Below are positions 34,552 to 40,847 of a stretch of 64,000 bases of DNA, one piece after another. The DNA is taken from NCBI GenBank assembly GCA_041660925.1, contig JBAZVI010000002.1, positions 19,906 through 83,905 of the forward strand, written 5' to 3'. Positions within the stretch are counted from its first letter, which is position 1. Each line of letters starts with the position of its first letter. Position numbers and translations under genes: made by a program. This stretch comes from Elusimicrobiota bacterium (GTDB lineage: Bacteria; Elusimicrobiota; Elusimicrobia; UBA1565). The notes beneath the pieces were generated by a model that was not told where the DNA came from, ran no database searches, and saw nothing but the letters and a program-made list of their open reading frames with translations.

Positions 34552-36647
34552 AGACCGCCCTGCTCGAGATCGGCGTCGAGACCCTGCCGGCGCGCTTCAT
34601 CCGTCCGACCCTGCGCCAGATGGAGGCGCTGGCCGTCGAGATGCTCAAGGCCGAGCGCCTCGAGCACGGCGCCGTCCGCGCCGTCGGCTCTCCGATGCGC
34701 CTGGCGCTCCTCATCTCGGGCGTCGCCGAGAAGTCCTCCGCCGACGAGCGCGAGGCCTCCGGGCCGCCCGCGCGCCTGCTCAAGGACGAGAAGGGCGCGT
34801 ACACGCCGCAGGCGCTGGGCTTCGCCCGGGCGCAGGGCGTCCGGGTCGAGGACCTCTCGACGAAGGAGACGCCCAAGGGACTCGTCCTGCTCGCCCGCAA
34901 GACCCTTCCCGGCGAGGGCGCGCTGCAGGTCCTGCGCCGCGTCTTCCCGGCGCTCATCGGGCGTCTCGAGTTCCCGAAGACCCTCGAGTGGGAGGAGTCG
35001 CGCTTCCGCTTCGGCCGACCGATCCGCAACCTCGTCGCCCTCTACGGGAAGAAGGTCGTGCCCTTCACGCTGGCCGGCGTGCGCGCGGGCAGCCGCACGC
35101 GCGGACTCGCCGCGCTCGGGCAGAAGCCCGTGCCCGTCGCCGACCCCGACAAGTACGTGAAGACCCTGCGCGACCGCTGCGTGCTCGTCGACCAGGACGA
35201 GCGCATGAAGGCCCTGCGCGAGGGGCTCGAAGCCGCCGCGAAGCGCTCCGGCGGCCGCCTCGACGAGGACGACGAGCTCCTCGAGCAGCTGAACTTCCTC
35301 TGCGAGCATCCCGTCGCCGTGCTCGCCGGCTTCGACAAGGCCTATCTCGAGCTGCCGCAGGCCCTGCTCACGACCGTGCTCAAGACCCAGCTCAAGTTCT
35401 TCCCGCTCGTCGGCAAGGACGGCCGGCTCCTCCCCGAGTTCATCGGGGTCCGCGACGGCGTCAGCGAGGGCCAGAAGGAGGTGCAGTACGGCTTCGAGCG
35501 CGTGCTCACCGCGCGCTACAGCGACGCGCGCTTCTTCTTCGGGCGCGACCGCGAGACGACGCTGTCCGCCAAGCGCGCGAAGCTGAAGCTCGTCGGCTTC
35601 CAGAAGGGCCTGGGCACGATGCTCGACAAGAGCGACCGCACCCTCGCCCTGACGCGCTGGCTCTGCGAGCGCCTGCGCCAGGAGAAGCATCTCGACGAGC
35701 GTTCGGCCGAGGCCATCGCCGACCTCTGCCACTGCGACCTCGTCAGCGACGTGGTCAAGGAGTTCCCCGAGCTGCAGGGGACGATGGGCGGCGTCTACGC
35801 CCGCCACGAGGACCTCGGCGAGCGCGTCGCGCTCGGTCTCGAGGAGTTCTACTTCCCCGTGGGAGCGAAGGGCCGGCTCCCCTCGCACCTGGAGGCCGTG
35901 CTCGCCTCGCTCGCCGGGAAAGTCGACGCCGTCGCCGCGATGTTCTCCGCCGGGATGAAGCCGACGGGCAGCGAGGACCCCTTCGCGCTGCGCCGGCTCG
36001 GCAACGGCGCCGTGCGCATCCTCCTCGAGAAGCAGGTCCGCGTCCCGCTGCGCGAGATCCTCGAGGCGGCTCTTGCCGTCGTCGAGAAGCAGGAGCTTCC
36101 CGCCTCCCGGCTCAAGGACGGGAAGGCCGAGACCCTGCGCGAGCTCGAGGAGTTCTTCTGGCAGCGGGCCGAGTCGCTCTTCCTCGACCAGGGCTTCCGG
36201 CAGGACGAGCTCAAGGCGGTCAAAGACGGCGGCCTCGACGACTTCCCCCGCACCTACAAACGCCTCGCCGCCCTGCACGCCCTGCGCGCGGAAGCCGAGT
36301 TCTCCGCGCTCGCCCAGGCCTTCAAGCGCGCCTCGCACATCGTGAAGGGCGACGACGGGGCTTCGCTCCAGGACGTCGACAAGGCCCTGTTCTCCGAGGA
36401 GGCCGAGCGCGGGCTCTACGACGCGCTCGCCCGCGTCGAGGGCGAGGTCCGCAGCAAGACCGCCGAGGAGGAGTACGAGGCGGCCCTGCGGGCGCTGGTG
36501 CGCATCAAGCCGGACCTCGACCTCTTCTTCGAGAAGGTCCTCGTCATGGCCCAGGACCCGAAGGTGAAGGCGAACCGCCTCTCGCTCGTCGGCCGGCTCG
36601 TGCGGCTCTTCCGCTCGGTCGCCGACGTCTCCCAGATCCAGAACTAA
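34548..36647 (+). CDS. glyS: glycine--tRNA ligase beta subunit
   Basis: Trimmed from ORF 34395..36647 to ATG at 34548 ([17 protein letters not shown]...), overlapping glyQ stop as ATGA; GlyS-like throughout. Confidence 0.9.
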
Positions 36648-36652
36648 GCGAA

Positions 36653-36702
36653 GCGTGAAACAGCGTGGAGGGGCCTTTCGGCCCCGCCCCGCTGTTTCAC
36701 GC
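36653..36702. terminator. nested inverted repeat between convergent glyS and toxin-antitoxin genes (candidate bidirectional terminator)
   Basis: 13-bp outer inverted repeat gcgtgaaacagcg/cgctgtttcacgc enclosing inner hairpin ggggcc-tttc-ggcccc; no clean U-tract on either strand. Confidence 0.45.
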
Positions 36703-36707
36703 TCTGT

Positions 36708-36869
36708 TCAGTGAAGACGGCGACGATAGGTCCGTTCGTTGCGGCGTAGGACTCGCAGGACCGTCACGATGCGCTTGCCGTCGTCGATGGAGTAGAGGAT
36801 CCGCCAGATGCATCCTTCGCCCGTCGGGTGAAATACCCCCGGGCCGAGACCGCCTTCTCCGGACGCTTC
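36708..36869 (-). pseudogene. RelE/ParE-family toxin C-terminal remnant (N-terminal half absent; probable degraded toxin)
   Basis: Frame ending at stop 36708-36710 reads ...GVFHPTGEGCIWRILYSIDDGKRIVTVLRVLRRNERTYRRRLH, resembling RelE/ParE C-termini; upstream in this frame is only the off-frame translation of the antitoxin gene. Confidence 0.4.
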
Positions 36870-37039
36870 AGGTGACTCTTCCACGCTTTCTGTGCGGCGC
36901 GGAGGTCCGCCAGCTCCTGGTGGTAGGTCTCCTCCACGGCTTTCCGCAGGAGATCCGCCATCGGGCAGCGCATCTCGACGGCGAGATGCTTGAGCCCGCT
37001 GTGCAGTTCTTCCGGCAGATAGATGGTCGTGCGTACCAT
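36764..37039 (-). CDS. ribbon-helix-helix (CopG/ParD-like) antitoxin
   Basis: ATG at 37037-37039 preceded by GGAGGG; MVRTTIYLPEELHSGLKHLAVEMRCPMADLLRKAVEETY is a typical RHH N-terminal domain; 91 aa, translated manually codon by codon. Confidence 0.65.
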   Translation of the reverse strand: MVRTTIYLPEELHSGLKHLAVEMRCPMADLLRKAVEETYHQELADLRAAQKAWKSHLKRPEKAVSARGYFTRRAKDASGGSSTPSTTASAS

Positions 37040-37348
37040 GGGGATACCCTCCATGGATAGTATGGGGTATAGACATACATATGTCAATATGTCCCAAAGC
37101 CATCTCCCCACCCCGATCATCCCCCCTCCTGCGGTCTTCAAATAGGATACGTACGGGAACGCAATAAGTTCCATTTGAGATATGAATATTTGGCGGACGC
37201 CTTCGGCCCTGCCCCGCGAATCTGGAACTTTCCCACGCCTCGGCGCGTACTCCCTATATGGATGCAGCGGCGTCAGATACAGCGGCGTCAGGCACCGCAA
37301 CTTTCGGAACTTATTGGGGGTGCGCGGGGATAAGCGCGGGCCTGTGCT

Positions 37349-37648
37349 CGCTAGGAGTCCGTCCGAGTAATAGCGTATTCCCCGGAGGCCCTCAGCCTGA
37401 GCCGTGCGCAAGGCGTGACGAGCGAGCATAGCTTCGCTATGTGAGCGAGGAGCAACGCGGCGCACGGCCGGGATGGGGCCTCCCGCTCCTCCTCGTATCC
37501 TCGTCGGAGGAGCGGGTCGCGCGCTATTGGGCTCCTCCTTCGTTGCTCGTCGCTTACAGGCCTTCAGGCCTGCGCGCTCCTCGCGCCTCGGCTCGCTCCA
37601 ACAGCGCGCGACCGGAGAACACGCTATTACTCGGACGGACTCCTAGCG
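37349..37648. repeat. 300-bp element bounded by 28-bp perfect terminal inverted repeats (candidate MITE or structured RNA)
   Basis: cgctaggagtccgtccgagtaatagcgt at 37349-37376 is the exact reverse complement of acgctattactcggacggactcctagcg at 37621-37648; interior holds further hairpins; no credible ORF. Confidence 0.45.
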
Positions 37649-37906
37649 GCTGCGTGAGCGCAAGTCTCGAAAGTTGCAAAAGTTGACGTCTGACCCCATC
37701 AGGATCACCTCAGTGAAAGTTCCATATCTCCCCTTCCTGCGAGTTCGCACTATCGGACTCCTCATTGCGTGCGATCGCGGCACTATCAGGGATGGGGTGC
37801 CGCCGAAGGGGCAGGGGAAGGGGGCTCTTTCCTCCCCGCGTACGGTCCTGACGCTATGGGTCGGGGTGTCGGTGAAGAGGGCGATGCGGGGGCGGGAGGT
37901 GGAGGG

Positions 37907-39535
37907 TCAGCGGTACTTGCCGCGGGCGACGGGCATGCGCCGGCCGATGCCGAAGGCCTTTCCGGTGATCTTCACTCCGGGAGCGGCCTGGCGGCGCTTG
38001 TACTCGGTGCGGTCGATGCGGTCGAGCACGTCGAGGACGAGGGCCTTGCGGTGTCCCCGGCGGACGATGGCGTCGAGCGTGCGGCCCTCCTCGACGTAGG
38101 CGCGCATGATGTCGTCGAGGACCTCGTAGTCGGGGAGGTCGTCCTGGTCCTTCTGTCCCGGCTTGAGCTCGGCCGAGGGGGCCTTGCGGATGGAGCTCTC
38201 GGGGATGCGCTCCCCTCCGCGGTTGATGAAGCGCGCGAGCTCGTAGACCGTGGTCTTGGGCACGTCCGAGATGAGGGAGAGCCCCCCCGCCATGTCGCCG
38301 TAGAGCGTGCAGTAGCCCACCGAGCACTCCGACTTGTTCCCCGTCGAGAGCAGCAGCGCCCCGCGCTGGTTGCTCAGCGCCATGAGGAGCATCCCGCGCA
38401 GGCGCGCCTGGACGTTCTGCTCGACGAGCGAGCCCGGCGCGGCGGTCTCTCCGAGCGCCCCGAGCGCGGCCTGGTGGATGGGGTTGATGGGGAGCATCAC
38501 CGTCTCGACGCCGAGGTTGCGCGCGAGGGCGAGCGCGTCGTCGACGCTCCCTTTGCTGGAGTACTTCGAGGGCATGAGGACGCCGAGCACGTTGCCCGGG
38601 CCGAGGGCGTCGGCCGCGAGCGTGCAGACGAGAGCCGAGTCGATGCCGCCGCTCAAACCCACGACGGCGCGGGTGAAGCCGCACTTGCGCGCGTAGTCGC
38701 GCAGGCCGAGCAGCAGGGCTTTGTAGATCTCCTCGGTCTCTCCCTCCGCGCGCAGGGCGATGGCCGGCGCGGCGGCGTCCGGGTCGACGAGGACGAGGTC
38801 CTCCCCGAAGCCGCGGGCGAGCGCGACGAGGCGTCCCTTCGCGTCGAGCGCCATGCTCGCGCCGTCGAAGACGAGCTCGTCGTTGCCGCCGACGAGGTTG
38901 CAGTAGAGGAACGGGAGGCGGTGGCGCCGGGCCTGGCTGCGCAGCATCTTCAGGCGGAAGCCGCGCTTGCCGCGGTAGTAGGGCGAGGCGGAGAGGTTGA
39001 GGAGGAGGTCCGCCTTGGCCCGGGCGAGCGCCGCGACCGGGTCGCGGTCATAGAGCGGCTTCTCCCAGAAGGAGCGGTCGTTCCAGGCGTCCTCGCAGAC
39101 GGTGACGCCGAGGCGGCGGCCTTCGAAGGGGATGGGTTCGTTGCGCGGGGAGGGCTCGAAGTAGCGGCCCTCGTCGAAGACGTCGTAGGTCGGGATGAGG
39201 GTCTTGAAGCGCCGGGCGGCGACCTTCCCGCGGTGCAGGAGGGCGGCGGCGTTGAAGAGGGCCTTGCCGCGGCCGCGGTTGGGCTCGGCGTAGCCTACGA
39301 GCATCGCGGTCCGGCGGGAGGCGCGGGCGAGCTCCCCGAGGGCCTTGAGGTTCGCGCGCACGAAGTCGGGCTGGTAGAGCAGGTCCCCCGAGGGGTAGCC
39401 GGGGATGCACAGCTCGGGGAAGAGCACGAGTCCGGCCCCGCGGCGCTCGGCCTCGGCGTAGGCGTGCAGGATGCGGTCGCGGTTCCCTCGGATGTCTCCG
39501 ACGGTGGTGTCGAGCTGGGCGAGCGCGACCTTCAT
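37907..39535 (-). CDS. nadE: glutamine-dependent NAD+ synthetase (N-terminal CN-hydrolase domain + C-terminal synthetase domain)
   Basis: 542 aa; nitrilase-like N-terminus (MKVALAQLDTTVGDI..., LFPELCIPGYP) and NAD synthetase PP-loop GLSGGIDS. Confidence 0.9.
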   Translation of the reverse strand: MKVALAQLDTTVGDIRGNRDRILHAYAEAERRGAGLVLFPELCIPGYPSGDLLYQPDFVRANLKALGELARASRRTAMLVGYAEPNRGRGKALFNAAALLHRGKVAARRFKTLIPTYDVFDEGRYFEPSPRNEPIPFEGRRLGVTVCEDAWNDRSFWEKPLYDRDPVAALARAKADLLLNLSASPYYRGKRGFRLKMLRSQARRHRLPFLYCNLVGGNDELVFDGASMALDAKGRLVALARGFGEDLVLVDPDAAAPAIALRAEGETEEIYKALLLGLRDYARKCGFTRAVVGLSGGIDSALVCTLAADALGPGNVLGVLMPSKYSSKGSVDDALALARNLGVETVMLPINPIHQAALGALGETAAPGSLVEQNVQARLRGMLLMALSNQRGALLLSTGNKSECSVGYCTLYGDMAGGLSLISDVPKTTVYELARFINRGGERIPESSIRKAPSAELKPGQKDQDDLPDYEVLDDIMRAYVEEGRTLDAIVRRGHRKALVLDVLDRIDRTEYKRRQAAPGVKITGKAFGIGRRMPVARGKYR

Positions 39536-40605: not shown

Positions 40606-40633
40606 GCGGGGCGTTCCGACGGGCCCCGCTCAC
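40602..40633 (+). terminator. stem-loop overlapping the lipoprotein stop codon (terminator-like, no U-tract)
   Basis: gtgagcggggc-loop-gccccgctcac, 11-bp perfect stem. Confidence 0.4.
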
Positions 40634-40847
40634 TCCCCTCACCCCCGCCCCCTCGCCGGCACCCCGACGCTGATAGTGCCGCAGACCGGACGCTTGCGGA
40701 ACCTGTAGTCCGGTCGCCCGCGTGGCGGTAGAGGGGAGGTAGTTTAACGGCGGGGCGTTCCGACGGGTCCCCGGGGGCCCTTGGGCCCACCTTGCGCAAG
40801 GCCTCCCGACCCTTCATCCCGGGCGCATCGCCGGCTATCCTGAGGAC

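What the first reader, a model, noticed from the sequence alone, without database searches (positions are those of the whole stretch)
37349..37648. 300-bp element bounded by 28-bp perfect terminal inverted repeats in a gene-free AT-richer island
The 28-mer at 37349-37376 is the exact reverse complement of 37621-37648. The interior has no credible ORF but several further hairpins (for example cgctcctcc...ggaggagcg and catagc-ttc-gctatg). This architecture fits a MITE (a non-autonomous transposon remnant) or a long structured non-coding RNA. It lies next to a degraded toxin-antitoxin locus, which suggests mobile-element history.
Basis: seen in the sequence. Interest (0 to 1): 0.65.

Follow-up and report, generated by a model that had tools for sequence, protein, structure and literature searches.

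The report
Miniature transposon from IS1182 family
The 300-bp palindromic element is a small transposon with no transposase gene of its own (a MITE), derived from an IS1182-family insertion sequence common in Elusimicrobia and soil or groundwater metagenomes; this is an ordinary kind of element, but each of its arms carries a conserved hairpin that is not in Rfam.

Summary
37349-37376 is the exact reverse complement of 37621-37648, where chance expects none, and the interior folds far better than shuffled sequence.

The ends are the terminal inverted repeats of an IS1182-family insertion sequence. The 20-mer TAGGAGTCCGTCCGAGTAAT occurs in 5 Elusimicrobia or uncultured genome bins and in at least 120 metagenome stretches. 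Paired ends fall into two size classes: 63-218 bp elements without a gene, and 1.4-1.7 kb elements encoding a roughly 430-460 aa transposase. The L033 transposase scores 400 bits against NF033551 (cut-off 270). 122 of 129 ends are preceded by C-TA, so insertion is at CTAG.

The window element is the two roughly 130-bp ends of an L033-like IS (75-77% identity) joined by a 35-bp central hairpin. Related copies lie in other contexts in one metagenome. A close relative (L126, NadE 96% identical) lacks the element and about 660 bp around it.

Verdict: a non-autonomous IS1182-family MITE, a new member of a known kind.

One feature deserves follow-up. Each arm is a roughly 100-nt hairpin with strong covariation (22 of 27 pairs) and a strand-specific G·U excess. 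It also occurs in small elements with unrelated ends.

The parts
37351..37354 (.). Left CTAG: the target site, either a duplicated CTAG or a duplicated TA inside a CTAG target
   Evidence: 122 of 129 family ends are preceded by C-T-A while position -4 is variable. All 48 paired elements show TAGGAG...CTCCTA, nearly always inside C...G.
37352..37376 (+). Left terminal inverted repeat TAGGAGTCCGTCCGAGTAATAGCGT.
   Evidence: Exact reverse complement of the right end. The first 20 nt are identical to the ends of IS1182-family elements in L015, L033, L135 and others.
37376..37485 (+). Left-arm hairpin module, about 100 nt, with apical stem CATAGC/GCTATG flanked by GAGCGAG runs
   Evidence: Covariance model R1 scores it 98.1 bits. 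It aligns with the left arms of L033, L004 and L087. Covariation is shown.
37482..37516 (.). Central hairpin CCCGCTCCTCC / GGAGGAGCGGG joining the two arms. It is specific to the MITE and absent from the full-length IS L033.
   Evidence: Seen in the folds. BLAST against L033 matches only MITE positions 1-129 and 166-294. L050 shares part of this centre.
37513..37621 (-). Right-arm hairpin module, read on the minus strand, with apical stem CAGGCC/GGCCTG
   Evidence: R1 scores it 115.7 bits. It aligns with the right arms of L033 and L032 and with L050.
37621..37645 (-). Right terminal inverted repeat
37643..37646 (.). Right CTAG (target site)
37246..37906 (.). About 660 bp, including the MITE, that are present here but absent between the nadE stop and the toxin-antitoxin promoter in the close relative L126
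   Evidence: L126 aligns at 92-93% up to 37173 and again from 37909. A degenerate copy of its nadE terminator aligns to about 37190-37245. The distance from the nadE stop to the RHH start is 120 bp in L126 and 865 bp here.
36708..37042 (-). Neighbouring toxin-antitoxin locus: RHH antitoxin (36764-37042) and a ParE toxin remnant
   Evidence: Pfam RHH_3 at 2.2e-05, and a ParE_toxin C-terminal fragment at 0.0023, below the curated cut-off. There is a 158-bp deletion relative to L126.
37907..39535 (-). nadE (glutamine-dependent NAD+ synthase), the upstream neighbour on the minus strand
   Evidence: CN_hydrolase and NAD_synthase homologues; the best named hits are from Elusimicrobia.

Best explanation
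The element is a MITE, a non-autonomous internal-deletion derivative of an IS1182-family insertion sequence. It keeps both roughly 130-bp ends of the parent, each a 25-nt terminal inverted repeat plus a roughly 100-nt subterminal hairpin module. The ends are joined by a 35-bp central hairpin, and the transposase gene is gone.

Inferred, not shown: it was inserted at a CTAG site by a DDE transposase supplied in trans from a full-length copy elsewhere in the genome or community. That enzyme would recognise the conserved termini (TA)GGAGTCCGTCCGAGTAAT. The insertion duplicated either CTAG or TA.

Shown here: the family, the partner IS and its transposase class, the match of each arm to an IS end, copies in other contexts, and absence from a close relative. 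Also inferred: if read through from nadE, the element would form a very stable RNA structure in the nadE 3' region.
For: (1) The perfect 28-nt inverted repeat has a chance expectation of 0.
(3) 48 paired elements fall into two classes: 63-218 bp without a gene, and 1.41-1.74 kb carrying one long ORF. The window element, at 294 bp, belongs with the short class.
(4) The long ORFs are IS1182-family transposases. L033 scores 400.5 bits and L015 371.6 bits against NF033551, cut-off 270. Pfam finds DUF772, DDE_Tnp_1 and DDE_Tnp_1_6.
(5) MITE positions 1-129 match L033 1-130 at 76.5%, and 166-294 match L033 1607-1735 at 74.6%; nothing else matches. Two diagnostic characters in the alignment, a C-G versus G-C pair and one indel, put the left arm with IS left ends and the right arm with IS right ends.
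(6) 122 of 129 ends carry the CTAG flank. This agrees with the 4-bp direct repeats reported for IS1182 members (ISPse1, PMC3281130; ISMac2-derived MITEs, PMC3852290).
(7) Copies occur in other contexts: L087 is 95.9% identical over 123 nt with a different flank, L050 is 84% and shares part of the MITE-specific centre, and L032 is 87%.
(8) L126 (NadE 96% aa, DNA about 92%) lacks it.
(9) The window has no transposase homologue, and no Rfam family matches.
Against: Only one copy lies in the 64-kb window, and the source genome could not be retrieved, so neither multi-copy status nor an autonomous partner is shown for this genome. The relative L126 is not a clean empty site: about 660 bp differ, not just the MITE, so a precise insertion junction is not demonstrated. 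Because CTAG is palindromic, the target-site duplication cannot be separated from the inverted repeat. The closest related copies (L087, L050, L032) sit on contigs that break inside the element, so only L050's shared centre argues that they are MITEs and not IS ends. Identity to the closest full-length IS found is only about 75%, so the true parent has not been found.
Confidence: 0.92

Rival explanations
1. It is a full-length IS1182-family element that inserted here and then lost its transposase gene by deletion in place, so it never moved as a miniature element.
For: The arms match IS ends. The closest copies are on truncated contigs, so most cannot be shown to be short. Internally deleted ISs exist in the family: L005 is 1042 bp and keeps only the N- and C-terminal transposase fragments.
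Against: L050 shares sequence past the right arm into the MITE-specific central hairpin, which L033 lacks, so the deleted form itself has spread. Fifteen other short gene-less elements with these ends show that the family readily produces mobile miniatures. The 28-nt ends are still perfect.
Confidence: 0.05
2. It is chiefly a gene for a structured non-coding RNA, or a cis-regulatory RNA in the nadE 3' region, and its resemblance to transposon ends is secondary.
For: The fold is extremely stable on both strands. The arm hairpins show compensatory changes and a G·U excess of 21 to 3 on one strand, which points to selection on a single-stranded fold.
Against: No Rfam family matches, even at E up to 10. 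The scan found no promoter-like or terminator-like site for it. It is absent from a 92%-identical relative. The same module sits in transposase-carrying ISs, so the structure belongs to the mobile element and not to this locus.
Confidence: 0.03
3. It is a chance palindrome, or a locally generated inverted duplication with no family.
For: Only one copy is present in the window.
Against: Chance expects 0 matches, and hundreds of related ends exist in other organisms.
Confidence: 0.005

Closest known systems
IS1182-family insertion sequences (for example ISPse1 of Paracoccus, 1653 bp, IR 16/16, DR 4; PMC3281130)
   Same: The autonomous partners found here are 1.4-1.7 kb. They carry one transposase gene that passes NCBIfam NF033551, have terminal inverted repeats, and have a flank consistent with a 4-bp target duplication.
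   Different: The window element has no transposase. One sub-lineage (L033, L135, L004 and the window) has unusually long ends of about 130 bp containing a structured hairpin module. Equally close IS copies (L132-134, transposase 82% identical) lack that module.
IS1182-derived MITEs of Methanosarcina acetivorans (ISMac2 partners; 160-169 bp, IR 25-26, DR 4 or 0; PMC3852290)
   Same: Both are short gene-less elements with IRs of about 25 bp that match an IS1182-family partner.
   Different: The host domain differs (a bacterium, Elusimicrobia-like, against an archaeon). The window element is larger (294 bp), has two structured arms and a central hairpin, and shows no sequence relationship that I tested.
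Correia elements (CREE) of Neisseria. This comparison rests on my own knowledge and was not tested here.
   Same: Both are small palindromic non-autonomous elements with roughly 26-bp inverted repeats inserted at a TA-containing target, and both can form long hairpins in transcripts.
   Different: Correia elements have no known autonomous partner and are 100-155 bp. Here the partner IS is identified.

Membership tests
Prokaryotic MITE | Small size (tens to a few hundred bp) and no transposase gene | tested here: met
   294-300 bp. The only interior ORFs are 57-81 aa with no homology support, and tblastn with family transposases finds nothing in the window.
Prokaryotic MITE | Terminal inverted repeats shared with an autonomous IS | tested here: met
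   The 20-25 nt termini are identical to those of L033, L015 and L135, which encode IS1182-family transposases.
Prokaryotic MITE | Target-site duplication | tested here: inconclusive
   CTAG flanks both ends here and 122 of 129 family ends. Because CTAG is palindromic, it cannot be told apart from an extension of the repeat. L003 (ATAG...CTAA) fits a TA duplication better.
Prokaryotic MITE | Several copies at different sites in a genome | not testable with these tools
   The 64-kb window holds one copy, and the source genome is not on record. Related copies in other contexts exist in metagenome Ga0172379 (L087, L050, L032).
Prokaryotic MITE | Presence/absence polymorphism between close relatives | tested here: met
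   L126 (DNA about 92% identical on both sides) lacks the element. The difference spans about 660 bp, so this is not a clean empty site.
IS1182 family (as the source of the ends) | Partner elements encode a transposase passing NCBIfam NF033551 | tested here: met
   400.5 and 371.6 bits against a cut-off of 270. Sources name the homologues IS1182 family transposase.
IS1182 family (as the source of the ends) | The element is mobilised by that transposase | not testable with these tools
   Needs a transposition assay.
Any Rfam RNA family | Covariance-model match at or near the gathering score | tested here: not met
   No match at gathering thresholds across the window. The only hit at E up to 10 is a spurious MIR164 match at 14.8 bits against a gathering score of 64.
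IS200/IS605-type palindrome-associated elements (PATE) or REP/BIME | No terminal inverted repeats; subterminal hairpins recognised by a Y1 (HUH) transposase | tested here: not met
   Clear terminal inverted repeats, and a DDE partner transposase.

The most novel reading that the evidence does not exclude
The roughly 100-nt arm hairpin may be a separate, undescribed cis-acting structured module, working as RNA or single-stranded DNA on the strand that reads inward from each end. It has invariant GAGC/GA-rich internal loops with tandem G·A steps, an invariant G·U pair and covarying stems. It is optional in IS1182-family elements and also occurs in small elements with unrelated termini (L002, L079). 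Possible roles are control of transposition or insulation against incoming transcription, with the module exchanged between transposon families.
Probability: 0.3. Interest if true: 0.5.

Novelty: new member of a known kind. Interest (0 to 1): 0.3.

Why it matters
On its own this is routine annotation: a MITE in an uncultured Elusimicrobia-like genome. It explains a gene-free island and marks a site of recent rearrangement next to a decaying toxin-antitoxin locus. It also defines the termini (TAGGAGTCCGTCCGAGTAAT), the CTAG target and the size classes of an abundant environmental IS1182 lineage that breaks metagenome assemblies.

The more useful lead is the subterminal hairpin module. Stems that covary, loops that stay fixed and strand-specific wobble pairs are the signature of a functional folded single strand. 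The IS1182 family has no described structured cis-element that I know of. The module's presence in elements with different ends suggests a portable part that could be tested directly.

Tried and rejected
- Rfam at gathering thresholds over the whole window, and at E up to 10 over 36900-38000: nothing credible.
- Exact-protein look-ups of NadE and the RHH antitoxin, to find the source contig: not on record.
- Viral contigs scanned for the terminus: 0 hits.
- Viral contigs scanned for the module core motif: 2 hits. Neither matched model R1 and neither locus showed a hairpin, so I treat them as chance.
- PLSDB plasmids searched with the 300-bp element in distant mode: no match.
- tblastn of family transposases against the window: only noise.
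- A nested outer element. I considered whether the outer inverted repeats (37297-37312 with 37662-37677; 37220-37232 with 37715-37727) and the AAGTTCCAT direct repeat (37166 and 37717) mark a second element into which the MITE inserted. The repeats are real and exceed chance. I found no other copy and no matching termini, so this stays unresolved and is not claimed.
- An IS200/IS605-like single-strand element, considered because of the subterminal hairpins: rejected on the terminal inverted repeats and the DDE partner transposase.
- The promoter and terminator scan found only the toxin-antitoxin promoter-like site at 37087-37059 (-), and nothing in the element.

Full report
**Observation**

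The 28-mer at 37349-37376 is the exact reverse complement of 37621-37648. It has no other match in the window at up to 3 mismatches, and shuffles give a chance expectation of 0.00. The repeat continues inward imperfectly to 54 nt at 81%, and the whole 300 bp aligns to its own reverse complement at 69%.

Both strands fold into a long closing stem carrying three branches. The MFE is -197.2 kcal/mol on the plus strand and -208.1 on the minus strand, with z = -12.6 and -14.9. Interior ORFs are short and unsupported.

The element's GC content is 0.667 against 0.683 for the window. Only the flanks are AT-richer, at 0.588 and 0.62.

**Setting**

The window has about 68% GC. On the plus strand glyQ and glyS end at 36647. 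On the minus strand nadE (37907-39535) is followed by an 865-bp gene-free stretch. After that come an RHH antitoxin (36764-37042) and a ParE toxin remnant. The best named NadE homologues are from Elusimicrobia. Rfam finds nothing in the window at gathering thresholds, and nothing credible at E up to 10 around the element.

**What the ends are**

A scan of one genome per species with GGAGTCCGTCCGAGTAATAG found five loci. Four are labelled Elusimicrobia and one is an uncultured bacterium.
- In L003 the motif bounds a 167-bp gene-less element.
- In L004 and L005 it lies just upstream of DUF772-type transposase fragments. L005 also has the inverted end 1 kb downstream.

Pairing inverted ends gave 48 elements in two classes. 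Fifteen are short, 63-218 bp, and the window's 294 bp belongs with them. About thirty are 1.41-1.74 kb, each with one long ORF, and a few are odd sizes.

The long ORFs are IS1182-family transposases. L033 scores 400.5 bits and L015 371.6 bits against NCBIfam NF033551, cut-off 270. Pfam finds DUF772, DDE_Tnp_1 and DDE_Tnp_1_6. Homologues are named IS1182 family transposase by NCBI in Elusimicrobia and Terriglobales bins.

**Termini and target**

Of 129 ends with enough flank, 122 are preceded by C-T-A, while position -4 is variable. The conserved block therefore starts at CTAGGAGTCC. Either CTAG is the duplicated target, or TA is duplicated inside a preferred CTAG. A 4-bp repeat is what has been reported for IS1182 members (ISPse1; ISMac2-derived MITEs). 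L003, with ATAG...CTAA, fits TA better. CTAG is palindromic, so sequence alone cannot decide.

**Anatomy of the window element**

BLAST against the 1735-bp IS in L033 matches MITE positions 1-129 to IS 1-130 at 76.5%, and positions 166-294 to IS 1607-1735 at 74.6%. Nothing else matches. L033, L135, L087 and L050 also share the window's extended terminus...GAGTAATAGCGT.

The element therefore consists of:
- the left end of an L033-like IS;
- a 35-bp central hairpin (37482-37516) that L033 lacks;
- the right end of the IS.

In the arm alignment, one C-G versus G-C pair and one indel separate left-type arms (window left, L033 left, L004, L087) from right-type arms (window right, L033 right, L032, L050). 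Each arm thus descends from the corresponding IS end. The window contains no transposase homologue.

**Evidence of mobility**

- L087 is 95.9% identical over 123 nt, with an unrelated left flank, and its contig breaks inside the element.
- L050 is 84% identical over 141 nt in the opposite orientation next to another gene. It extends into the MITE-specific centre.
- L032 is 87% identical over the right arm.
- All of these, together with the full-length L033 and L037, come from one metagenome, Ga0172379. That metagenome also holds an Elusimicrobia contig with a 70%-identical NadE.

A closer relative, L126, has NadE 96% identical and DNA about 92% identical on both sides. It has only 120 bp between the nadE stop and the antitoxin start. 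The window aligns to L126 up to 37173 and again from 37909. L126's nadE terminator aligns weakly to about 37190-37245. About 660 bp, including the MITE, are therefore extra in the window.

This shows presence/absence polymorphism but not a clean empty site. L126 also keeps 158 bp of parE that the window has lost.

**Mechanism**

Shown:
- the element carries the ends of an IS1182-family IS and no transposase;
- such short derivatives are common in the family;
- the deleted form recurs elsewhere.

Inferred:
- a DDE transposase made by a full-length copy binds the conserved termini and inserts the element at CTAG;
- on this locus's minus strand the element lies between nadE and the remnant of its terminator, so read-through would put a very stable structure into the nadE 3' region.

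None of this can be tested without the rest of the genome or expression data.

**The arm hairpin**

Each arm folds into an irregular hairpin of about 100 nt. On eight arms, 98.5% of cells pair and 15 of 27 pairs show changes on both sides. Sliding the partners by 1-3 columns gives 29-37% pairing.

A covariance model built from these arms found further instances:
- both arms of a further full-length IS, L135, at 97.9 and 102.6 bits;
- the single hairpin that makes up the 167-bp MITE in L003;
- a hairpin inside a 175-bp element in L002 with perfect 32-nt ends of a different sequence, AGGGCTCGTTAAGAAATAAGTGACACACTTCG, flanked by TTA;
- a hairpin inside a 163-bp element in L079 with ends AGAGGYTGTGAAYGAATCCCC;
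- a weak match in L013.

The module is absent from IS copies whose transposase is just as close to L033's, namely L132-134 at 82% identity.

On the 11-sequence alignment, 97.3% of cells pair and 22 of 27 pairs have compensatory changes. No shuffle reached any of the five measures, and slid controls gave 33-41% pairing. That alignment is fitted to the model, which favours the structure. Three of its rows (L002, L003, L013) and two more (the L135 arms) were not in the training set.

G·U cells outnumber A·C cells 21 to 3, and one G·U pair is invariant. The unpaired runs are conserved GAGC/GA steps, which would form tandem G·A pairs (and the sequences themselves). This pattern points to selection on a fold of one strand, the strand that reads inward from each end.

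Whether that strand acts as RNA or as DNA, and what it does, is open. Candidate roles are transposase or host-factor binding, or a block to transcription entering the element. I did not find the module in Rfam.

**Comparison with what is known**

IS1182-family ISs and MITEs derived from them are established. This element is a new member of that kind in a poorly studied phylum. The possible novelty lies in the portable hairpin module, not in the MITE.

**Verdict**

Confidence in the MITE explanation is 0.92. Novelty: a new member of a known kind. Interest is 0.3, raised slightly by the arm module.

Noticed in passing
window 37376-37485 (+) and 37513-37621 (-); L002 5824-5998; L079 6337-6499; L003 3124-3290; L135 26-134 and 1599-1707: A roughly 100-nt hairpin module has covarying stems, conserved GAGC/GA internal loops and an invariant G·U pair. 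It is present in both arms of some IS1182-family elements and singly in small elements with unrelated terminal repeats, and it is absent from equally close IS copies. It is not in Rfam.
   Followed up: partly
window 40608-40765 and 37767-37817: The window has a second insertion relative to L126, about 158 bp after the 197-aa ORF. It is bounded by near-repeats of GCGGGGCGTTCCGACGGG. It shares a 52-nt stretch (83%, inverted, core GCGGCACTATCAG) with the right flank of the MITE, so this may be another small dispersed repeat.
   Followed up: partly
window 37735-37784; L032 112-161: A 50-nt segment in the MITE's right flank is 92% identical, in inverted orientation, to sequence in L032. In L032 that sequence directly abuts a related MITE end and precedes the start of an ABC-transporter ATPase gene. 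Its function is unknown.
   Followed up: no
window 37166-37174 and 37717-37725; 37297-37312 with 37662-37677; 37220-37232 with 37715-37727: AAGTTCCAT occurs only at these two places in the window (expected 0.11). Two further inverted repeats bracket the MITE. This may mean the MITE sits inside an older palindrome or a second element. No other copies were found.
   Followed up: partly
L013 4087-4122 and 6973-7008; also L010, L016, L071, L085, L100, L101, L107, L120, L125: A 36-bp foldback unit, TAGGAGTCCGTCCGAGTAATGCCTGACGGACTCCTA, consists of one full end and a truncated inverted end. It recurs in at least 10 metagenome contigs, mostly next to GTAGGCGCGCCG or a close variant. In L013 two such units bound a 2.9-kb segment that contains host-like genes.
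   Followed up: no
window 36708-36807 compared with L126: The ParE toxin gene has lost 158 bp relative to the close relative L126, while the RHH antitoxin and its promoter region remain 93% identical. This is toxin-antitoxin decay by loss of the toxin.
   Followed up: partly
window 36652-36703; L126 just after the nadE stop (the locus is held in reverse orientation; positions about 580-640 of its reverse complement): Similar terminator-like palindromes (agcgtgaaac...gtttcacgc with a GC-rich loop ...CTTCGGCC...) occur after glyS in the window and after nadE in L126. The copy after nadE in the window (about 37190-37245) is eroded.
   Followed up: no
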